From positions 1 through 26,237 of the IMG/VR virus record IMGVR_UViG_3300011443_000047: a DNA stretch of 26,237 bases, one strand, 5' to 3'. Source of the stretch: a virus. Its lineage: Duplodnaviria > Caudoviricetes. Position 1 is the first letter of the stretch, and the number at the start of each line of letters is the position of its first letter. The position numbers and the translations under genes are program-made. Below are positions 6,911-26,200 of this stretch, one piece after another. Below the pieces are notes generated by a model. The model was not told the origin of the DNA and did not search any database. It saw only the letters and a list, made by a program, of their open reading frames with translations.

Positions 6911-7918
6911 CTAGTTCGTGCTCTCACCCTTGCAGCAGACTTCCGGAACCGTGCAGTACGGCAGCGGATTGCTCTGAGTGTGAATAGACACGCCTTTGTC
7001 GTGGTCGAGCAGAGCCTGCGACGCGTAGAACTCCAGACCAGGCGTACCGACGGCACCCATCTGATCCGCAGGAGCGTACGCGACTTCGAACAGGCCAGGC
7101 GCGCCGACTGGGAAGAACCGCGCCTGCTTCGGGTCGACGAACGCTTGGTCGCCCACAGAACCGGGGTACTCTTCGAAGATGATGCCAGCGAAGGGGAACC
7201 CCGACCGCGGATCGTTGCGACGCATGACACCGTCCTGGAAGCGATCGTACGCTGCCAGTACGTCCTTGTGGTCGATGAGCCGCTGGAAGAAGTCGTAGCC
7301 GCAGAAAGCGTGAATGTGGTCGTACGGCACACCGCCGAGTTTTTCCTCGATGAACCGCTTGACCTTCAGGCAGATTTGCCGAATCTTCGTCGCGTCTGTC
7401 CCGAGCTTGAAATCGAAGCTTTGCTCGGTGACGCTGAAAATGGTGAACAGGTCGGCCAGTACGCCCACGCCGTCACTGTCGAGAACCTTGCCTTTCAGCG
7501 CGCCCATATACAGCCACTCGCGCGTGACCTGATGGTCTTGCTTCATGCGAGTGAGGCGATCGTTCACGACACCCACGACCGTCTGCATTTGGTCCGCAGA
7601 CCCGAACTGCCGAACACCGATGATGTCGTCCGGCTTGACGTGGCTGTCGTGCGGAAAGTGCGGTACAGGAACGGACCGCACGGTACGCTTCACCGGCGGT
7701 ATCACTGACGCGGGCGAGCCGCGCGGCTTGCTGGGGATGAGCGACAGCTTACCCTTCTGCTCTTCCAGCAGGGCAATTGTGGTCGTGATCGGTTTCGGGG
7801 TGAACAACCCCATACTTCCGATACGGCCAGGGGTGAAAGGCAGCCGGTTCATGGACGTCGTCAGAGACGCCATGTTGAATGCCGGACTGCCGAATACGTC
7901 CGCCATCTCGTTGGCCAT
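6911..7918 (-). CDS. Major capsid protein, lambda gpE-like family (HK97 fold)
   Basis: FNMASLT..MNRLP...MGLF, RGSPA, VPHFPHD, TREWLYMGALKG, FPFAGIIFEEY, HTQSNPLP. ATG at 7918 chosen as start (AGGAGG SD; the ORF-track TTG at 7927 is too close to it). Confidence 0.93.
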   Translation of the reverse strand: MANEMADVFGSPAFNMASLTTSMNRLPFTPGRIGSMGLFTPKPITTTIALLEEQKGKLSLIPSKPRGSPASVIPPVKRTVRSVPVPHFPHDSHVKPDDIIGVRQFGSADQMQTVVGVVNDRLTRMKQDHQVTREWLYMGALKGKVLDSDGVGVLADLFTIFSVTEQSFDFKLGTDATKIRQICLKVKRFIEEKLGGVPYDHIHAFCGYDFFQRLIDHKDVLAAYDRFQDGVMRRNDPRSGFPFAGIIFEEYPGSVGDQAFVDPKQARFFPVGAPGLFEVAYAPADQMGAVGTPGLEFYASQALLDHDKGVSIHTQSNPLPYCTVPEVCCKGESTN

Positions 7919-7991
7919 TGTAGTCAAAGCCTCCTATCGTTGGACCTTCTGAACCAGAAAACTACAGTACCGAAACCACGAGGCGTCGGAC

Positions 7992-9029
7992 TTAGAGCGA
8001 CTCAGTGTTCAACGGCTGTCGCAGGCACTGAATGCCGGCCTTTTCGAGAGCCGTTACGATGTCAGCCAGAACAGCGCCCGACGGAATGTCGAGCATGTTC
8101 ACGTTCACCTGACAGTTGCGAACCGCGAACGTTGCACGGATCGTCTTCTCCGAAGCAGCGGTCGTGAGCTCCTGGAGACAGACAGCGGACGGGAAACCGT
8201 CGCCCGGAGGTCCGCCTTGGGTCGTCTCGACCATACTCGCGCCCGTGCAGCCTTCCAGCAGCGTCACGTCGATCACGATCATCGGCTGATTGATCTGCGT
8301 ATACCCAGCACCCGCGAAGGTGAAGGTATTCGCAGTGATCGCAGTGCCACCGACCGTGCAGGCACCCGAACCCAGAACGGTGTTGACCGCGTTCTGGATT
8401 GCCGTGTTGTCGGCGTTGTACGCCAGGGCAATCGTGGTCCCCTTCGTACCGTCCTTTTTAGTGAAGGTCAGAGTGAAGGTACCGGCCGTCAAAGTGCCGG
8501 TGATCGCCATGGTTTGCACTTCGTCAGCGCCTGCCCCAGCGGACTGCCCACCCTGGGTGGTACGGGTCACGGACGAATCTTCCTCACCGGTGAGGCCGTC
8601 GGTGTCCAGTTCGACGATCGGCCACGACTTGCCCGCGTACCCTGCTCCAGAGAAGGTCAGAGTGGTTGCGGTGATCGCAGTGCCGCCAGCGACGATCATG
8701 CTGGAACCGAACGCGTCGTCCAACGCGGTTTGGATGTTGGCGACGCTGGCGTTGTGCGCGATGTTGGCCGTGATGCGCTCAACGCCGTTCTTGTCGGTCC
8801 CTTTAATCTGCCAGAAACCACCAGACAGAGTGCCAGTGATAGCAATCGTCTGAACCTCGTTGGTGTTGGACGCGATTTTCTTCATCCGACCGGCCACGCC
8901 GCGTCCACATACGGTGCCGATCTTCAAGGTCTGACTTTCGTCAACCAAGAGCGCTTCGCGCGACATGCGCGCGGGCTGCTCCATCAAGAGCACGTCCCCT
9001 ACTCGGGTGGGCTCAGTTGCTGTACCCAT
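7992..9029 (-). CDS. Head decoration protein (gpD/HDPD-like) with two inserted ~105-aa repeats
   Basis: N-terminus (EPTRVGDVLLME...SRE...LKIGTVCGR) and C-terminus (SAVCL...AVRNCQVN...ALEKAGIQ) match head-decoration proteins that precede gpE-type capsids. The centre has two repeats starting NEVQTIAITGTL and DEVQTMAITGTL. Confidence 0.8.
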   Translation of the reverse strand: MGTATEPTRVGDVLLMEQPARMSREALLVDESQTLKIGTVCGRGVAGRMKKIASNTNEVQTIAITGTLSGGFWQIKGTDKNGVERITANIAHNASVANIQTALDDAFGSSMIVAGGTAITATTLTFSGAGYAGKSWPIVELDTDGLTGEEDSSVTRTTQGGQSAGAGADEVQTMAITGTLTAGTFTLTFTKKDGTKGTTIALAYNADNTAIQNAVNTVLGSGACTVGGTAITANTFTFAGAGYTQINQPMIVIDVTLLEGCTGASMVETTQGGPPGDGFPSAVCLQELTTAASEKTIRATFAVRNCQVNVNMLDIPSGAVLADIVTALEKAGIQCLRQPLNTESL

Positions 9030-9236: not shown

Positions 9237-9773
9237 CTACTTCTTGGCTGCCGCGCGGCGCTCAGCGTCCTTGACCAGGAGGTCGCTCTCACCTTCCCCG
9301 TTGTTGGGGTTGGACAGACTGAGCGACTGCGGACCAGTCTTCTCCTTCAGCGCGACCGGGTCATTGAGCGACAGCACACCGATGAGCTTGTCGAACTCAG
9401 ACTGCGTGCCGTGTTGCAGCGACAGTTCGACCGCCGAGTTGCTGGGCCCAATGTACAGCGCAGCCATCTGATCCCGAACCGCTGGTGTGATGCGCGCCGC
9501 GGCCACGAGACCGTCGAGCTTCATCTTCCGGTTGTCGGCAGCCAAACTGACCAACGTTGCGTCCGGCTTCGACTTGTTGCCTGACGACGCTGAGATCGTC
9601 TTGACCTGGTTGGTCAGTTCGAGGATCTTCTCTTCCAGGGTTTTCTTTTCCTGGGAAAGACTCGTGTTGGTCTTCACGAGCTCTGATGCGCAGGCTGACA
9701 GCTGCTGCTCCGCCGTCTCCTGCTTGAACTCCTTCACGCCGAGCAGCTCAGCGAGTTTCTTCAACCACTCCAC
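9237..9773 (-). CDS. Probable internal in-frame scaffolding protein (Mu gpZ-like)
   Basis: AAGGAGG-7 nt-GTG at 9773, in frame, at the protease/coiled-coil boundary (..QGGHP|VEWLKKLAELLG). Confidence 0.7.
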   Translation of the reverse strand: MEWLKKLAELLGVKEFKQETAEQQLSACASELVKTNTSLSQEKKTLEEKILELTNQVKTISASSGNKSKPDATLVSLAADNRKMKLDGLVAAARITPAVRDQMAALYIGPSNSAVELSLQHGTQSEFDKLIGVLSLNDPVALKEKTGPQSLSLSNPNNGEGESDLLVKDAERRAAAKK

Positions 9774-10430
9774 AGGGTGGCCTCCTTGATGCGACGCCGC
9801 TATCGGCACAAAGGCACCGAGACCCGGAACGACCGGATCTGTACACAGAGCCACGTGCGTTATCGGCTGGTGATACCTGATCCCATTTCCGTCTATGAAC
9901 TCAGCAGGGGAGTGAATGCTCACGTCGCTCCGCGCTGCTGCTAGAATTCCGTCTTCACCGATCATGCTGCATTCCATGACCAGTTCGTCGCCCTCGATAC
10001 GCATGTGATCAACATACCCTCGGTTCATGTCCGGGTTGCCGTCACCTGCGTGAGTACTGGGAATAGGGACACGAATGCCGTTCGATTTCATCTCGGCAAA
10101 GGTTTCAGCCCAGTGCTCCAACATTGACAGGTCTACGTGCACCTTCTGATTTGTCGACGCCTTGAACCACTCGCCGCGCTTGATGACGGTTTTCTTGAAC
10201 TTCTGAACCGGTTGACCGTTGATCGTTTGGCGGTCGCCCTTGGCCACGAACGGTTTACCCGACGCGCAGATGAACACGCTGGACATTGCAGTGCCGCCTG
10301 TCCACCGTCGCTCGCAGACCGCCGTACGCTGCGTCTTGTCAGGGAACTCCTCGTTCATGACAGCGTCGCCCACACAGCGAGTAATAAACCCGTCTCTGCT
10401 TTCGCCTTGGTTCGGTTTTGGCAACGGCAT
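9237..10430 (-). CDS. Mu gpI-like prohead protease / scaffold
   Basis: Between MuF and the decoration gene. Motifs IKRGEW, VPIPSTH, DVSIH, ITHVALCTDPVVPGL, then a coiled-coil scaffold region with 'VAAARITPA'. Confidence 0.85.
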   Translation of the reverse strand: MPLPKPNQGESRDGFITRCVGDAVMNEEFPDKTQRTAVCERRWTGGTAMSSVFICASGKPFVAKGDRQTINGQPVQKFKKTVIKRGEWFKASTNQKVHVDLSMLEHWAETFAEMKSNGIRVPIPSTHAGDGNPDMNRGYVDHMRIEGDELVMECSMIGEDGILAAARSDVSIHSPAEFIDGNGIRYHQPITHVALCTDPVVPGLGAFVPIAASHQGGHPVEWLKKLAELLGVKEFKQETAEQQLSACASELVKTNTSLSQEKKTLEEKILELTNQVKTISASSGNKSKPDATLVSLAADNRKMKLDGLVAAARITPAVRDQMAALYIGPSNSAVELSLQHGTQSEFDKLIGVLSLNDPVALKEKTGPQSLSLSNPNNGEGESDLLVKDAERRAAAKK

Positions 10431-10434
10431 CGTA

Positions 10435-11385
10435 CTAGCTCCGTACTAGGTGCACTAATGCACCAGGGTTGAAGTCGAATCCCTTGTCCGGTCCTGGAGT
10501 AATCACTTCGCCGTCCAATTCGAACGGATCAGGTACCGGTACGATCTCACGCTCTTCGAATATTGGTATCACCTGACAACGGCAAGCATAGCCGTTAGGT
10601 GGCATAATCTGTTCCCACGCAGGGTCGTCTTTTGGCAGTGTTACACCTTCAAGCGCCGCGTGCTCTGGACGGACCCGGCCATCGCCAGCGGTTACATATT
10701 TGTAACCCCAGAGGATTTCTGCAACAGCCGGGTCCTGCTCCAGCGACCGTTGGCCAACCGACAGGGCCAGTTGTGTCTGTGTACGGTAAATCAGTTCAAG
10801 AGTGAACGCGTTATCAGGTACGATACCCAGCGCTTCGAAGGCGTCATCCAGCATCTGTACACCACGACGCAGTGAAACGTCTTGCGTACGAATAGCGGCC
10901 ATGACACCTTGCAGTTGCCGGTCCACGCGTTCGTCCAGAGTCGTTAGCAACCGAGCAGCCACAGGGGAGTACATTTGCTCAAGAGCATTTAGCTCTGCAA
11001 AAGTCAACCCCGCGCGACGGCGCAGGAAATCAGACGACACTTCCAGAAGACGGTTGGCTGAGATAGCCAGTGAGACTGACGGTGGCACTATCCACTGAAC
11101 CCGTCTCTGGAAGGTGATGAGCTGAGCCCGTATCACTTCATTGGTCATACCGACCAGGTGCGCGTTGACAAGCGCCCGCACAGCAAGACGGTTTAAAGCT
11201 AGCAGCTGCTGACGTACTGCCGTGCTCGGGTTACCGCCCTCGCGCAGAGCGCGCTTGCTCGCGGCTCGAGCGCGCGTAAGCACAACGCGCGAAGCTGCCA
11301 GTGCACGTGCCACTGTCAGGTTCAGTCGACGCTGTTGCTTTGCAGCCACGCGCCGTTCGTATGCAGTTGTCTTACTCGTCGGCAT
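10435..11385 (-). CDS. MuF (Mu gpF / SPP1 gp7-like) minor head protein, short form without a toxin tail
   Basis: LELIYRTQTQLA, YVTAGDGRVRPEHAALEG, DDPAW..IMPPNGYACRC, PDKGFDFNPG are MuF motifs. TAATG overlap with the portal gene. Confidence 0.93.
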   Translation of the reverse strand: MPTSKTTAYERRVAAKQQRRLNLTVARALAASRVVLTRARAASKRALREGGNPSTAVRQQLLALNRLAVRALVNAHLVGMTNEVIRAQLITFQRRVQWIVPPSVSLAISANRLLEVSSDFLRRRAGLTFAELNALEQMYSPVAARLLTTLDERVDRQLQGVMAAIRTQDVSLRRGVQMLDDAFEALGIVPDNAFTLELIYRTQTQLALSVGQRSLEQDPAVAEILWGYKYVTAGDGRVRPEHAALEGVTLPKDDPAWEQIMPPNGYACRCQVIPIFEEREIVPVPDPFELDGEVITPGPDKGFDFNPGALVHLVRS

Positions 11386-13367
11386 TACAGTTCTTCTAGT
11401 TCAATTGCCACGCCAGGTTTTCCGCCGAAGGTCGTAGACTTAACACTAAGCACCCGGTGACGCGCACCTTTTGGCAATATAACCTCTTTTTGTTTCGGGT
11501 ACCGAGAGAACTGACCTCTTGACATTCCTGACTGCGTCGTAACTTTCATTACTACAGCGTGTGACTGAACCGATTCGTTTCGGAACCCTGTAGCGAACTT
11601 CTTCGCCATTTTGGGATCTTCAGTGAAGCTCGTGAACGAATCAGTTGTCAAGACGTCTCCAGGCTTTGCATTTAAAATCGCGTTGCCTTCACTAACATTC
11701 ATCCCGCGATACGCGTCACCTTCGAACTTCGGCGCCTTAGCGTATGCAGACTCCAGGTCGTGAACTTGATCAGTCACCCAGTCTTGAGCCTCCGACGGGT
11801 TTATTTGCGCATTCTTGAGAACCCAGCTGCTTTCTTCCCACGACTCAAGAGCCAATTGCTCGTTGTGGGTTAAGTTTGAATCCCAGTTATCGATACGCTG
11901 TTCAAAAGATTGTCCTGCCGCAGACGGAGTTTTACCGATCAGGTCCGACGGCCCTTTTTCTATCTTACCGTCTTTGATAAAGACGCGTGCACCGTTGATC
12001 GTTACCCACCGTCCAGAACCGTCTTCTGATAGGCTAAGCTCTGTCTCAGCCTTCTTGCGTTTTGCCGGATCCATACCGGGGTCAGGCTCTGATTCTGGAC
12101 GGTCGACCGGGTTCTCATTCAGCGGAATGTCCAGCTGCTCTTGAACGCTGCCCCAGTCAACGCGATCAATCAGTTCAATAGCCACCTCGCCCTGCAAGGC
12201 AATCTTGTACAGCTCACGCAGGAACGCGGACTGTTTATCCGTCAGCGGCATAGGATCGCACCACACCGCTCCGCGCGCCCGTTCCCCGAAGTTCAATACC
12301 AGCAACCGGTCGGTGATCTGCTGGTTGAACGACACTGTTATCTGCTTGTGCTCTTGAGCGCGGATGAGCAGTGACAGGTCTGCATGTTCCCCAGAATCTG
12401 CCTTCGTACCGAACTGGCCTTCAAGAGCAGTTCTCTCTGGAGTGAGAAGACCGCGAACGAACCGCTTGTCCAGGTCGTTCAACCGGGTTGAGAAGTTCCC
12501 CTGTTTCGGATTGTCGTCCGACAGCATTTCGAACCGCCACTGCAAGGCCTCTTGCAATTCCTTCTCAAGCTGGGCCTTGGTGGTAGCGCTGCCGATCAGC
12601 GGCACTGAGATTCCGATATTGGGCTTTGTCAACTGGCGAGCAAACTCCTTAGCGATATCGGCATTGGACTGCTCAACGCCACCCACCTTGTTCTTTCCTG
12701 GAGGGAAGTGGACAACAGGCTTGACACCCGCAACCTTGGCGTCGTAGTCAGCGGCGACAGTGTCAGCGGAGTTCCACTTGTTGTAGGTATCGCGCACGTT
12801 CTCTAGTAGGGGTTCACCGTACCAGTTCGACCCCTCGACGTTGAACGAGAACAGCAATCCCTGCTCGGCCGGAAGCACGACTTCAGTTCCTACCGGGGTC
12901 CTCTGGGAGAAACCTGTGTATTCGCCGTTCTCGATATTGACGCGAATCTCTGTGATGTCGTGCAGCAGCTGCTTGACTTTCTTGATCACAATGTAGCCGG
13001 TCTGCGGGTCGAATACGTAGACAACTTCGAACCCCACCCAGCCAAAGTCGATTCGTCCCAGAAGCATCGCAGCGCGCACAACATGGTCGTGCAGCTTCAA
13101 CAGGTTATCGCGCACGAAATCGACCCATTCCTGCTCAGCGTCTTTGCGTGACGAGATACCCCACCCTGCTGCGATGGCGGGCGCGGCCACGAGCTCGCGA
13201 GCGAGCGCGACAGTGGGCTGTTTCCGAATCGTACGGTACGTGCCGTAGTTTGGTCGCAGTGGGGCTGCCAGTCGCGTGTCGACTGTGACAGACGCCAGTT
13301 GTGGTCCCGTCATTTCGGACGCGACAGTCTTCGGCTCGCTGACTTTCTTTGCTGCGCGTTTCGCCAT
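11385..13367 (-). CDS. Portal protein (Mu gp29/DUF935-like) fused to a C-terminal ADP-ribosyltransferase domain
   Basis: Directly after TerL. First ~415 aa portal-like (FGWVGFEVVY, NWYGEPLL, ITDRLLVLNFG). Last ~165 aa has the ART R-S-E triad: AYRGM, SFTSFT, PKQKEVILPKG. One uninterrupted frame. Confidence 0.88.
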   Translation of the reverse strand: MAKRAAKKVSEPKTVASEMTGPQLASVTVDTRLAAPLRPNYGTYRTIRKQPTVALARELVAAPAIAAGWGISSRKDAEQEWVDFVRDNLLKLHDHVVRAAMLLGRIDFGWVGFEVVYVFDPQTGYIVIKKVKQLLHDITEIRVNIENGEYTGFSQRTPVGTEVVLPAEQGLLFSFNVEGSNWYGEPLLENVRDTYNKWNSADTVAADYDAKVAGVKPVVHFPPGKNKVGGVEQSNADIAKEFARQLTKPNIGISVPLIGSATTKAQLEKELQEALQWRFEMLSDDNPKQGNFSTRLNDLDKRFVRGLLTPERTALEGQFGTKADSGEHADLSLLIRAQEHKQITVSFNQQITDRLLVLNFGERARGAVWCDPMPLTDKQSAFLRELYKIALQGEVAIELIDRVDWGSVQEQLDIPLNENPVDRPESEPDPGMDPAKRKKAETELSLSEDGSGRWVTINGARVFIKDGKIEKGPSDLIGKTPSAAGQSFEQRIDNWDSNLTHNEQLALESWEESSWVLKNAQINPSEAQDWVTDQVHDLESAYAKAPKFEGDAYRGMNVSEGNAILNAKPGDVLTTDSFTSFTEDPKMAKKFATGFRNESVQSHAVVMKVTTQSGMSRGQFSRYPKQKEVILPKGARHRVLSVKSTTFGGKPGVAIELEEL

Positions 13368-13368
13368 G

Positions 13369-14670
13369 CTACCTCGCAGATATCATTCCAATGTCACCTA
13401 CGTCGTCGAAATCCAACGGCACTTCAATCGGGAACAGCTGATACACCGCGTACCCTACCGCGTCAGTCATGTGCCCTATGTCACCGCGTTTGTCCGCGTC
13501 ACGAGTACCCGGCTTGTAGCCCGTACGCTGGAAATCCTTCACCGTGAACTTGCATCGTTTACTGAAGAACATTCTACGGTCGCCGTCTGCATTGCACAGC
13601 ATAGCGTTGACGGCAGCCCACCGATCTTGCTGCGCCGGGTTGCTGTCCTTGTAGTACACAGCTCGACCGGCCTTGCGGAACCTTGCGTCGCTCTCAATCA
13701 GTTCATAGTCGGACTGTGTTGCATTACCGCCGGCACGCGCCTTGCTTGTTGCGTCACCGTAGAACTCGAACCCCATCTTGTGTGACGCATACCGGGTCCA
13801 CAACTCGTTCAGCGTCTCAGCGGTATTGGAGTCGCGCAACACAATTTCGTCGAACCATTCCATTCGGTTTTCCCACCGGTGACCGATAGCCCAGCACATC
13901 GGCGTGATGTTGAAGTCCGATGCCACTACGATAGGCTTATCCTTGTGATACTCACACGGTCGAACATTGGCCTCGCTGAAAGCGTAATAGATACCGCCAC
14001 CTACTGTTTGCCACAGAGCACAGAACTGCTCGTTGAAGTCCTGCTCCGTCATATGCTGCCGTGCATACGTTAGCAGGTCTTGCGGCACGATATCGCCTGA
14101 CTCCCAGGTGAAAGCTTCACTCACCCCGTCCGTGCAGGCCATAGCGTTTTCGAAGGCCTCACGAAATTCTGGAGCTGAGGGACCGGTCCGCTTCGGGACA
14201 CCGATACGCCATGCCCATCCTGAACGGTGCGTGAGCGCCGGAAGAATGTTCAGGTCGAACACGCCTGGCTTCTGATCACACGACTCGTCGATTACACAAC
14301 CGTCCCACTGAACGCCTTCCACTCGCTGCGGTGCGTCAAGACCAACGCACCATAGTTGGCTTCCGAATATCGTCTCAATATACAGCTCACTGCGGTTGAT
14401 ACTCGCAATCCAATTCCTGGGACAGAGGTTGACGAGATCGTTCCAAGCGATACGCTTGGCCTGTTGGACAGTGGGCCCTCCGTAGAAGTACCTGGGGTCA
14501 CGCCACGGTTTCGGTTGTGGCAGTTGTGCTACGAGTTGCCGCTTGGCCAGTTCAGTTTTCCCCGAGCCCCGCCCTGCAACCACCAGCTTGAACCGCGCCT
14601 TCGACCGCCACAGCCGGTGTTGCACCGGGTGGTGTCGTAGTTGGGACCAAGCTGGGCTGAGTCGAATCAC
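13369..14670 (-). CDS. terL: Terminase large subunit
   Basis: Walker A AGRGSGKT, PTVQQAK, Walker B CVIDES, nuclease motifs ASDFN and HMTDAVGY. Confidence 0.96.
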   Translation of the reverse strand: MIRLSPAWSQLRHHPVQHRLWRSKARFKLVVAGRGSGKTELAKRQLVAQLPQPKPWRDPRYFYGGPTVQQAKRIAWNDLVNLCPRNWIASINRSELYIETIFGSQLWCVGLDAPQRVEGVQWDGCVIDESCDQKPGVFDLNILPALTHRSGWAWRIGVPKRTGPSAPEFREAFENAMACTDGVSEAFTWESGDIVPQDLLTYARQHMTEQDFNEQFCALWQTVGGGIYYAFSEANVRPCEYHKDKPIVVASDFNITPMCWAIGHRWENRMEWFDEIVLRDSNTAETLNELWTRYASHKMGFEFYGDATSKARAGGNATQSDYELIESDARFRKAGRAVYYKDSNPAQQDRWAAVNAMLCNADGDRRMFFSKRCKFTVKDFQRTGYKPGTRDADKRGDIGHMTDAVGYAVYQLFPIEVPLDFDDVGDIGMISAR

Positions 14671-22887: not shown

Positions 22888-23514
22888 TTATCGTCCTAAC
22901 AGACCCCGTACTAGTTTTGCATCTTCAGACGCCTGGCGATTTTCTGGAGAAAGACTGTCCGGTGCGGTTGTGTCCTGCATGTCGCGAATCTGTTGCAGAA
23001 TCATCGAACCTGTCAGCCCTTGTCCCTGGTCCATTCGCAACCCGAGCAGCTTGTTCAGTTCGCGCTGGGCGAGTGTCATACCTCTAGAGTCGCCGGAGGC
23101 GTACGCGACCCGGTACGCTTGCAAGTGCCGCTGCTGGGCCATTCGCAGTTCATAGTCCGGGTCGAACTTCTCAGCGTGAATCCGTCGCAGGCATTCGGTG
23201 TGTATTGCACGACACATTATCGAACTGCCTGGCTGCCAGTACCACTTGCGTCCTACCTTCACTCTCACATCGAACAGCGGATGCTTGGTACACTTGTCAA
23301 CGATCTGGGGTCTTGTGAATCCCAGTATGATTTGGTTGGTTACAAACGAGATCCGACGTTCTGTAAACTCGGACTGATAGTCGCGTCTCGCGCGCTGTCG
23401 TTGTTTAGCTGCCTCAATACCCGGCTCATCCCACTGTGATACCGGTGGCTTTTTACCGGGCACTCGAACCTTGAGTCGCCCTACCGGGATTTTTTTGGTA
23501 CTCCGTTTGGCCAT
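22888..23514 (-). CDS. Possible terminase small subunit / helical DNA-binding protein
   Basis: Start probably ATG 23514 (MAKRSTKK). Basic N-terminus, HTH-like GFTRPQIV, and AYASGDSRGMTLAQRELNKLLGL, similar to TerS-like oligomerisation helices. Confidence 0.5.
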   Translation of the reverse strand: MAKRSTKKIPVGRLKVRVPGKKPPVSQWDEPGIEAAKQRQRARRDYQSEFTERRISFVTNQIILGFTRPQIVDKCTKHPLFDVRVKVGRKWYWQPGSSIMCRAIHTECLRRIHAEKFDPDYELRMAQQRHLQAYRVAYASGDSRGMTLAQRELNKLLGLRMDQGQGLTGSMILQQIRDMQDTTAPDSLSPENRQASEDAKLVRGLLGR

Positions 23515-23698
23515 CGCTATTTTGTCCGTGTTTCCGTCTCGCGATCGTTGATGATTTTTAACATTTTGCGATAGAATGCACCAAACATCCCGCATACCAA
23601 AACATGAAACCGACCAGGAGTATAGCTCCCGCATCGGTTTCAGCAGCGACGTCTCGTTCAGTCGGTTACTCGGCAGCCCAGGCCAGTTTTAGCCCGTT

Positions 23699-25315: not shown

Positions 25316-26086
25316 TCACGCAGTTCGAACTTCTTTAGCAAACGCTTTCTCAAGATCAACCTCCTCTCGTCTCGTTGACCAAATCTGCGGCAGCATACGG
25401 TACTGTCCATGACAGTCCAACCCGCAACCTGTCACGAACCCTTGATGCTTCAGCGGATGTATAGCAGCCCACACCGTGTCAGCGCCAGTATCAATCTCAC
25501 CCACGTCAGGCGTATTCCGCGATAATAGGGCCATGAAGTGCACTGCTCTCGGACCGAACCCTGCCAACCCTTCCGTCACGACATCAAACGTCCGACCGCT
25601 GTCGATCATATCATCCAGCACAATCACGTGGCGATCCTGTACGTCTACAACCGACAGGTCACCCCAGTCCACTTTCGGTTTCAGCGGCGTCACGTTGTTG
25701 CCGTACGAACTGACCCGTATGAACTTCACACGCTGTGCACCTAACATTTCTTGTCCACGAGTACTGGTCATCCAGGTCATCACAGCGTATATGACACGGG
25801 ACGCAAACCAGTACCCACCCTCTAGTATCACTACCCATGTCACGTGTCGCGAACTGCATCGCTGCTCTACGAGATCGATAGCGTAGCGAATAGCTTCTGA
25901 CACCGCAGCTGCAACCTCTCGCTCCGTATACAAACACGTGTCCGGTACCATCGGACGCGGGTACTTCTCGAACAGGCGATGTGCCAGGTATTTCACCAGG
26001 TCATGTTCATTTGCCCGGTCACCATTGTACTCTTCTAGCCACCGTGCCACCGGATTGTCTTGCGTCGTTGTATTTTCAGCTGCCAT
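25316..26086 (-). CDS. hpt: Hypoxanthine(-guanine) phosphoribosyltransferase-like protein
   Basis: VILEGGYWF, FIRVSSYG, PRPP loop VLDDMIDSGRT, ALLSR and FVTGCGLDCHGQYRMLP align with HPRT motifs (LKGG, VSSYG, VEDIIDTGLT, LLDK, FVVGYGLD..YRNLP). GGAGG SD before ATG 26086. Confidence 0.82.
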   Translation of the reverse strand: MAAENTTTQDNPVARWLEEYNGDRANEHDLVKYLAHRLFEKYPRPMVPDTCLYTEREVAAAVSEAIRYAIDLVEQRCSSRHVTWVVILEGGYWFASRVIYAVMTWMTSTRGQEMLGAQRVKFIRVSSYGNNVTPLKPKVDWGDLSVVDVQDRHVIVLDDMIDSGRTFDVVTEGLAGFGPRAVHFMALLSRNTPDVGEIDTGADTVWAAIHPLKHQGFVTGCGLDCHGQYRMLPQIWSTRREEVDLEKAFAKEVRTA

Positions 26087-26200
26087 ATTTTCCTCCATTT
26101 AGTGCTCTGTGGTTTTTTCCCACCGCGCTTTACCCCCCTTATAGAGCGTCAACCATTTCGTTGAACTTCCCCTTATACCCCTTCCCCAACTCGGGTAAAG

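What the first reader, a model, noticed from the sequence alone, without database searches (positions are those of the whole stretch)
11385..13367. Portal protein fused to an ADP-ribosyltransferase toxin-like domain
Seen: one 660-aa ORF in the portal position (TerL-portal-MuF-protease). Its last ~165 aa carry a full R-S-E ART triad: AYRGM (~11705), SFTSFT (~11630), QKEVILP (~11480). Known: phage ART domains usually occur as C-terminal tails on MuF proteins or as stand-alone packaged enzymes such as T4 Alt. Here MuF is the short toxin-free form and the enzyme is on the portal. Portal C-termini face the capsid interior and portals are dodecamers. Inference: each virion would carry about 12 ART copies at the DNA exit, ready for injection (host takeover or anti-defence). 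No immunity gene is adjacent; MuF starts on the stop codon (TAATG).
Basis: partly seen in the sequence, partly recalled or inferred. Interest (0 to 1): 0.92.

Follow-up and report, generated by a model that had tools for sequence, protein, structure and literature searches.

The report
Phage portal carrying releasable ADP-ribosylating cargo
This bacterial virus has an ADP-ribosylating enzyme domain fused to the end of its DNA-gate (portal) protein, behind a likely protease cut site and a short unnamed tag that recurs on many phage head proteins, so the enzyme is probably cut loose inside the head and delivered to the host; such fusions were predicted in print before, but I found no description of the tag.

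Summary
The fusion is real: one 660-aa ORF with a Mu-type portal (aa 1-416) and an R-S-E ADP-ribosyltransferase (ART; R554, S580, E628; model pLDDT 84, closest structure Vis). Contigs from two other runs tile the junction without differences. Its Q-x-E loop argues against arginine targets. It is not unique: portal-ART fusions are mentioned in print (Iyer 2022) and I found three more (L117, L163, L162). The linker is the new part. It holds LSLS, which in 27 window proteins occurs only here and at a conserved site of the Mu-like protease/scaffold, followed by an unnamed hairpin tag (GxWVTINGxxVFI). The tag starts stand-alone cargo genes (13 of 37 occurrences) and follows portals of Mu, HK97 and lambda type. 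Phage Mu's own portal loses its C-terminal 124 residues, attributed to protease I. Best reading (0.55): the tail is cut off in the prohead and delivered as free cargo, not held as 12 tethered enzymes. Cleavage, activity and delivery are untested, and one motif test failed. Host probably Planctomycetota.

The parts
12120..13367 (-). Mu-type portal core, aa 1-416
   Evidence: PF06074 40.2 bits, phrog_113 E=1.9e-12; 35 homologs at 27-43% identity; profile hits two PDB portals
12039..12119 (-). Charged, proline-rich linker, aa 417-443, likely disordered
   Evidence: 76% D/E/K/R/P/S/G over aa 417-453; disorder inferred from composition
12027..12038 (-). LSLS, aa 444-447: predicted prohead-protease site
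   Evidence: LSLS occurs 2 times in 7,454 aa of 27 window ORFs, here and in the protease/scaffold; not ranked by a 6-position matrix
11949..12014 (-). WVTING tag, aa 452-473, predicted beta-hairpin or meander; likely cargo-loading tag
   Evidence: no fitting Pfam or NCBIfam model
11385..11900 (-). R-S-E ART domain, aa 490-660 and stop: R554 (11708-11706), S580 (11630-11628), ARTT loop SRYPKQKE aa 621-628 (E628 at 11486-11484)
10435..11385 (-). Short MuF (316 aa), no C-terminal cargo, start overlaps the portal stop
   Evidence: PF04233 E=7.4e-14
9237..10430 (-). Mu gpI-like prohead protease/scaffold; H127, S171, H192 as likely catalytic residues; LSLS at aa 370-373 (9323-9312)
   Evidence: 20 of 31 alignment members hit Mu-like_Pro, the window's own protein does not; conservation; 22 of 29 homologs have phi-x-L-[SAG] at the C-terminal site
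13369..14670 (-). Terminase large subunit
   Evidence: phrog_2 E=3e-21
6911..9029 (-). Decoration protein (7992-9029) and major capsid protein (6911-7927)
   Evidence: HDPD E=1.1e-5, Phage_cap_E E=1.4e-91

Best explanation
The gene encodes a Mu-type portal with an ADP-ribosyltransferase domain on its C-terminus, and the phage's prohead protease likely cuts the tail off at LSLS (aa 444-447) inside the procapsid, which would leave a 50-kDa portal and free a 23.5-kDa tagged enzyme that is probably ejected with the DNA. Shown: the fusion, the intact R-S-E residues, the ART fold of the model, the recurrence of site and tag at cargo boundaries in relatives. Inferred: up to 12 copies are loaded because the portal is a dodecamer; the cut; retention and ejection helped by the WVTING tag, which becomes nearly N-terminal after the cut, as it is on stand-alone cargo genes; ADP-ribosylation of a non-arginine target (an asparagine-type residue or a nucleobase, from the Y-x-x-Q-x-E loop) early in infection, for takeover or counter-defence. 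The tail is an exchangeable cassette gained from elsewhere.
For: Mu gp29 lacks its last 124 residues in virions, attributed to protease I, and the portal stays in the contracted particle (PMC11915804). The protease gene is of the Mu gpI family by homologs. phi-x-L-[SAG] follows the conserved Q near the protease C-terminus in 22 of 29 homologs against 5.2% of 10-aa windows in portal cores; LSLS is found only there and in the portal linker among 27 window ORFs. 9 of 10 internal cargo tags in this clade have the site within 16 aa upstream (background 8.8%; 5 of 6 by locus), against 1 of 23 internal tags in other phages. 6 of 7 long portal tails have the site in their first 110 aa and 4 of 7 carry a tag, against 3 of 13 and 0 of 13 long MuF tails (Fisher p 0.017 and 0.007), as expected if portal cargo must be cut free and MuF cargo need not. 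L117 is a portal with ART, tag and 2H/Acb1-like modules, most opened by an L-x-L or L-S site plus a short tag. L010 repeats LALAG/LMLAG plus tag three times inside and begins with the bare tag. The tag is N-terminal in 13 of 37 occurrences; four genes behind the portal of L191 each start with it, one an ART by its motifs. Tail GC3 0.50 against 0.69 in the core, p=6e-6. 123 of 128 non-redundant clade portals have tails under 200 aa, median 30.
Against: No experiment on cleavage, activity, packaging or ejection. The site pattern is short and was chosen after seeing the sequences, and the tags are not independent (three from L010, three from L117). A 6-position matrix trained only on protease C-terminal sites did not put aa 444 among the four best sites of this portal; a site in the folded core scored highest. 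Two other phages with Mu-type head genes (L178, L192) and the portal-tag-ART fusion L163 lack the strict site within 16 aa of the tag. L045's tail has neither site nor tag. The cleavage specificity of Mu gpI was not found in the papers I could read. A piece cut before DNA packaging could leave the head instead of staying. No immunity gene or ADP-ribosylhydrolase was found among 30 window proteins scanned (record about 51% complete). MuF and the tape measure gene also have low GC3 (0.55, 0.56), so low GC3 is not peculiar to the tail.
Confidence: 0.55

Rival explanations
1. The ART works in the producing cell late in infection, while still on unassembled portal, for example against host defences that sense the portal or terminase; any later cut only clears it away.
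For: PMC9503650 raises this alternative for head-module ARTs. Late expression with no immunity gene is tolerable if the cell is about to lyse. A fused 2H/Acb1-like domain in L117 shows counter-defence cargo on such portals.
Against: It does not explain a tag shared with stand-alone cargo genes of the head module, nor why tags and sites mark portal tails and not MuF tails.
Confidence: 0.2
2. The tail is a recently inserted cassette that is cut off and lost, or is catalytically weak, and does little for the phage.
For: No second phage with this ART on this portal was found; tails are rare (5 of 128 at 200 aa or more) and scattered on the portal tree; the STS motif reads S-F-T.
Against: R, S, E and the aromatic ARTT residue are all intact; the model is a complete ART fold; no differences in other runs; the same layout arose on other portals.
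Confidence: 0.12
3. One reading: the ART stays attached, twelve copies crowning the portal in the virion, and acts from there or is dragged out with the DNA.
For: In-frame fusion with no stop or frameshift; the matrix test did not single out the site.
Against: The Mu portal remains in the emptied particle and is C-terminally shortened (PMC11915804); a covalently attached domain could not leave.
Confidence: 0.07
4. The tagged ART is also made as a separate protein from an internal start at M432, and the fusion is incidental.
For: One ATG lies in the linker, 22 codons before the tag's W; stand-alone tagged cargo genes are common.
Against: No purine-rich ribosome-binding motif in the 20 bases before it, whereas the portal start has GAGGT.
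Confidence: 0.04
5. The fusion is an assembly or sequencing artefact that joined a portal gene and a separate ART gene.
For: Most homologous portals end within about 30 aa of the core; coverage of the supporting contigs is low, depth 2 to 8.
Against: Identical sequence across the junction in a separate contig and in contigs of runs X2 and X4; the same architecture in L117 and L163.
Confidence: 0.02

Closest known systems
Portal- and head-fused effectors predicted by Iyer, Aravind and colleagues (PMC9503650; PMC5512222)
   Same: [quoted passage not shown]
   Different: In the passages read no release site or shared tag is described; Figure 5a and the cut part of the supplement were not seen.
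MuF polymorphic toxins (Jamet 2017, PMC5576092; Bxa, PMC11699363)
   Same: ART cargo encoded in the head module on a structural carrier; in this clade close ARTs sit on MuF (L133 33.6% identity, L084, L085, L063, L046, L226).
   Different: [quoted passage not shown]
Phage Mu portal gp29 (gpH) and protease I
   Same: Same Pfam families (Portal_Mu, Mu-like_Pro, Mu gp36 adaptor); C-terminal 124 residues absent from virions, attributed to protease I (PMC11915804).
   Different: Here the removable tail is 214 aa and carries an enzyme; cleavage is not shown for this phage.
T4 Alt
   Same: R-S-E ART packaged in the head and injected (passage in PMC5512222); phrog_832 weak hit E=0.008.
   Different: Alt is a stand-alone gene; arginine specificity and protease processing of Alt are recalled, not checked; this enzyme has Q-x-E.
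Vis (PDB 4xzj) and C3/ScARP-type Q-x-E enzymes
   Same: Best sequence and fold match is Vis; the X-X-aromatic-X-X-Q-X-E loop matches the C3/ScARP type (PMC7827354).
   Different: 27% identity to Vis, which has E-x-E in the alignment; no secretion or cell-binding part; target unknown.

Membership tests
Mu-type portal (PF06074) | Score above Pfam's cut-off | tested here: met
   40.2 bits against 23.9
Mu-type portal (PF06074) | Position between terminase and MuF/protease/capsid genes | tested here: met
Mu-type portal (PF06074) | Dodecamer in the virion with C-terminal processing | not testable with these tools
   Known for Mu gp29 (PMC11915804); inferred here
R-S-E ART (Alt/VIP2-like) | Catalytic R, S and E in register | tested here: met
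   R554, S580, E628 are the three most conserved non-glycine columns of 13 phage ARTs
R-S-E ART (Alt/VIP2-like) | ART fold | tested here: met
   pLDDT 84, pTM 0.80; Foldseek top hits are all ARTs, best E=2.5e-12; Atlas 0.96 to ADPrib_exo_Tox clusters
R-S-E ART (Alt/VIP2-like) | Pfam ADPrib_exo_Tox or ART cut-off | tested here: inconclusive
   22.5 against 23.4 and 20.7 against 22.3 bits
R-S-E ART (Alt/VIP2-like) | NAD+-dependent transfer activity | not testable with these tools
   needs an assay
Arginine-specific ARTs (iota/Vis/Bxa type) | E at the sixth ARTT position (E-x-E) | tested here: not met
   SRYPKQKE has Q626; rule from PMC7827354
MuF polymorphic toxins | N-terminal MuF domain on the toxin | tested here: not met
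   N-terminus is a portal; MuF is a separate 316-aa gene
MuF polymorphic toxins | Immunity gene next to the toxin | tested here: not met
   MuF start overlaps the stop codon; upstream gene is TerL
MuF polymorphic toxins | Variable C-terminal cargo among homologous carriers in the head module | tested here: met
   Homologous portals carry GNAT, InPase, C39-like, ART plus 2H tails
Polyvalent proteins (Iyer 2017) | Several effector domains in one chain | tested here: not met
   One enzyme domain here; L117 and L010 of the same clade do fit
Capsid-targeting signal of the T4 internal-protein kind (recalled) | Short peptide sufficient to load a protein into the prohead | tested here: inconclusive
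   Distribution of the WVTING tag fits; sufficiency untested; no sequence relation to T4's signal examined

The most novel reading that the evidence does not exclude
The WVTING hairpin is an undescribed, portable head-cargo tag shared by tailed phages with unrelated portals and proteases, and portals act as twelve-copy dispensers: effector modules are strung on the portal tail, each opened by the phage's own protease site plus a tag, cut loose in the prohead and ejected. This would be a general loading and release code for injected phage effectors, and tag searches would list them.
Probability: 0.35. Interest if true: 0.82.

Novelty: new variant of a known kind. Interest (0 to 1): 0.58.

Why it matters
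How small phages load and release injected effectors is largely open outside T4. Portal-fused enzymes were predicted, but a portal does not leave the virion, so the prediction lacked a release step. This locus offers one (Mu-type protease site) and a candidate tag that also marks stand-alone cargo, both directly testable with purified proteins. The tag could be used to mine injected anti-defence and takeover enzymes. A Q-x-E phage ART, probably from a Planctomycetota phage, may also have an unfamiliar target.

Tried and rejected
Single-sequence scans of viral contigs with the portal core and with the tail found no relative. A protein search with the tail found only the window's own protein among 714 candidates of 363-1155 aa; a search for portals of 880-2510 aa found none among 8,000 scored, although L117 (1,301 aa) exists, so that search is insensitive. 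Folding the tail without an alignment failed (pLDDT 43). Alignment-based locus searches could not run for the portal in genomes and for the ART in viral contigs. The profile search over 1.84 billion representatives was not available, so the count of portal-ART fusions is a lower bound. Complex prediction for two copies of the tag gave no answer, neither for nor against self-association. A 6-position site matrix did not rank aa 444 (counted against the best explanation). No promoter or terminator excess around the gene. Protease profile found no solved relative by sequence. Paper searches for the tag's letters returned only unrelated text (30 of 194 listed); searches for Mu gpH cleavage and for the P2 gpO consensus gave nothing usable, so a recalled likeness to the P2 site is not used. 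Runs X3 and X4 hold small shares and are not used for habitat. Rejected: artefact; MuF-toxin membership; arginine-specific Alt-like chemistry as the default.
Full report
OBSERVATION. The ORF 13367-11385 on the minus strand is 660 aa. It lies between a terminase large subunit (phrog_2) and a 316-aa MuF whose start overlaps its stop as TAATG, followed by a 397-aa gene, a decoration protein, the major capsid protein and a Mu gp36-type adaptor. The record is a 26,237-base virus contig, about 51% complete. Residues 1-416 are a Mu-type portal (PF06074, 40.2 bits, cut-off 23.9). Residues 490-660 match Vis at E=3.8e-12. With a 13-row alignment the domain folds at pLDDT 84 and its best structural matches are R-S-E ARTs (Vis E=2.5e-12, TM 0.75); the Atlas gives 0.96 to ART clusters. 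R554, S580 and E628 are the conserved columns. The domain is just under Pfam's cut-offs. The junction is supported by an identical 406-aa protein from a 1,467-base contig, by one X1 contig over 10000-14000, which may be the source, and by overlapping X2 and X4 contigs from 12314 to 11341 with no differences (16 of 21 pieces were shown).

HOW COMMON. I collected relatives from three searches: 35 proteins besides the window's own, the best 80 of 238 viral loci and the best 80 of 361 metagenome loci, one being the window itself and dropped. Of 195 portal hits, 187 were complete at the 3' end and fell into 128 non-redundant sequences; the median tail is 30 aa, 9 of 128 have 120 aa or more and 5 of 128 have 200 or more. 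These five carry GNAT (P0025, P0027), InPase plus a further domain (L078), a C39-like peptidase (L045), and ART plus 2H/Acb1-like domains (L117). On a FastTree tree of the cores the window's nearest neighbour is tail-less and the tailed portals are scattered, apart from P0025, P0027 and L045, so tails were gained more than once. In the same clade ARTs more often sit on MuF: L133, L084, L085, L063, L046 and L226; 14 of 54 complete MuFs have tails of 100 aa or more. The closest ART to ours is the MuF-borne one of L133 (33.6% over 146 aa). The tail has GC3 0.50 against 0.69 for the core (p=6e-6), though MuF and the tape measure gene are also low (0.55, 0.56). Outside the clade, L163 is Portal_Mu plus tag plus ADPrib_exo_Tox and L162 a lambda-type portal plus tag plus ART-PolyVal; two BFVD entries named as portals match the ART model (ranks 16 and 23 of the 50 shown). 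The fusion is thus recurrent, not unique.

THE LINKER. Between core and ART lie a charged proline-rich stretch, then ELSLSE, then GRWVTINGARVFIKDGKIEKGP. The 397-aa gene has no Pfam hit itself, but 20 of 31 alignment members hit Mu-like_Pro, and H127, S171 and the HVALC histidine are kept; their role as a catalytic set is inferred from herpes-type proteases (recalled). Near its C-terminus 22 of 29 homologs (window and one ClpP-fused row left out) have phi-x-L-[SAG] within 10 aa of an invariant Q, against 5.2% of windows in portal cores; in the window this reads LSLS, and LSLS occurs only there and at portal aa 444 in 7,454 aa of 27 ORFs. I read these as maturation sites; that is inference. In the Mu virion the last 124 residues of portal gp29 are absent, which the authors attribute to protease I citing Grimaud 1996, and the portal remains in the contracted particle (PMC11915804, passages; Grimaud not read). 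A cut at 446/447 would leave 49.7 kDa of portal and free 23.5 kDa.

THE TAG. Two DNA-pattern scans of viral contigs built from the window's motif gave 11 and 48 stretches, reducing to 37 occurrences in 36 proteins; the conserved letters are conserved by construction. Thirteen are at the N-terminus of stand-alone genes. The others include nine portals of Mu, HK97 and lambda type (one with a weak Pfam hit; three HK97-type ones are close kin), one MuF and two head proteases (S78, DUF2213), with cargo such as ART, ART-PolyVal, LPD3, GNAT, topoisomerase IB, zeta toxin and an L,D-transpeptidase-like domain. Several phages have two to four tagged genes; in L191 four genes behind the portal each start with it. 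No fitting Pfam or NCBIfam model was found. A second short tag (F/Y-D/N-x-x-Q/K-x-R/P...G-x-W/F) plays the same role in L010, L078 and L117. Within the clade 9 of 10 internal tags have phi-x-L-[SAG] within 16 aa upstream (background 8.8%; 5 of 6 by locus), against 1 of 23 in other phages once L176, the same contig as L070, is moved over. Upstream letters in S78-protease phages tend to be lysine-centred (L182, L188, L205), a small and only suggestive sample. Long portal tails have the site in 6 of 7 cases and a tag in 4 of 7; long MuF tails in 3 of 13 and 0 of 13. MuF has the site at aa 60-125 in 41 of 54 cases against 34% background.

AGAINST. The pattern was set after seeing the sequences, is four letters long and the cases are partly related. 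A matrix trained on 23 protease sites did not place aa 444 among the four best portal sites, although it did pick domain borders in L117, L078, P0025 and P0027. L178, L192 and L163 have Mu-type head genes and no strict site within 16 aa of the tag. Nothing here shows cleavage, activity, packaging or ejection, or what the tag binds.

CHEMISTRY AND HOST. The ARTT loop is SRYPKQKE, an exact X-X-aromatic-X-X-Q-X-E. By PMC7827354 (passages) E at the sixth place goes with arginine targets and Q with asparagine (C3) or guanine (ScARP). So an arginine-modifying, Alt-like or Bxa-like activity is the less likely one; the target is unknown. A pattern scan of genomes gave 11 loci, 9 with a related portal; the 7 closest (31-40% identity) are in metagenome-assembled genomes titled as Planctomycetota, one on a 233-kb contig. 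The host is therefore probably a planctomycete and relatives can be prophages; binning errors are possible. The two best-holding runs are freshwater sediment metagenomes.

MECHANISM. Most likely (0.55): the fusion is built into the procapsid as part of the portal ring, the Mu-type protease cuts at LSLS, the tagged ART stays inside and leaves with the DNA to modify a host target early. Rivals: action in the producing cell against portal- or terminase-sensing defences (0.2), a discarded or weak passenger (0.12), permanent tethering (0.07), internal start at M432 (0.04), artefact (0.02).

LITERATURE. [quoted passage not shown] PMC5512222 (passages) lists PBECR, 2H and InPase fused to portals. PMC5576092, PMC3482391 and PMC11699363 (passages) cover MuF toxins. 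PMC8541194, PMC2628397, PMC3091744 and PMC7824862 (passages) added nothing. Searches found no description of the tag or of a release site for portal cargo; the library lacks most subscription journals. Look-ups of this scan's earlier notes found none on this genome or sequence and none with the tag.

VERDICT. Observation confirmed; interpretation partly supported. A new variant of a known kind: portal-borne effector with a likely protease release site and an unnamed cargo tag. Interest 0.58.

Noticed in passing
L117:3926-7831: 1,301-aa portal carrying an ART, a WVT-tagged module, further modules and a 2H/Acb1-like phosphoesterase; a stand-alone gene at 1438-1995 begins with LQLA plus the same FDESQHPRD tag.
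   Followed up: partly
L191:132-3160: Four small genes directly behind an SPP1-like portal each start with the WVT tag; one has ART motifs. No protease gene seen in the stretch held.
   Followed up: partly
L010:7410-11198: 1,263-aa gene right after the portal, made of modules each opened by LALAG/LMLAG plus a YxxxQRRNQGGRW-type tag; includes HD-like and metallopeptidase-like parts.
   Followed up: partly
L017:4633-7233: Terminase large subunit and portal in one 867-aa reading frame; a true fusion or an assembly error.
   Followed up: no
L207:1976-4969 and L210:2417-5911: HK97-type portal fused through the tag to topoisomerase IB; and a tagged zeta-toxin plus kinase-like protein near a T4-type portal.
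   Followed up: no
L058:7208-8995: MuF interrupted by an intein/HINT domain.
   Followed up: no
L188:3388-4980 and L202:2884-4608: The WVT tag lies inside prohead protease genes (S78 and DUF2213), behind the protease domain.
   Followed up: no
window 7992-9029: Decoration protein of 345 aa with a two-repeat insertion (NEVQTIAITGTL / DEVQTMAITGTL) inside the lambda gpD-like fold; homologs range from about 120 to 470 aa.
   Followed up: no
window 9237-10430: The protease has an N-terminal extension of about 45 aa before the core; homologs carry different, exchangeable extensions.
   Followed up: no
window 25316-26098: Phosphoribosyltransferase-domain gene (PF00156, E=2e-13) at the end of the record; a link to nucleotide or NAD metabolism was not examined.
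   Followed up: no
window 22888-23634 to 14670: A likely small terminase-like gene at 22888-23634 (by position and sequence character only, no family hit) is separated from TerL by about 8 kb of structural-looking and membrane genes (Gp80 fibre, beta-helix, BppU-like).
   Followed up: no
L222:2436-4808: Mu-type portal in a genome titled Dehalococcoidia with a tail of about 330 aa that opens with LVLS, VSLA and VDLS.
   Followed up: partly
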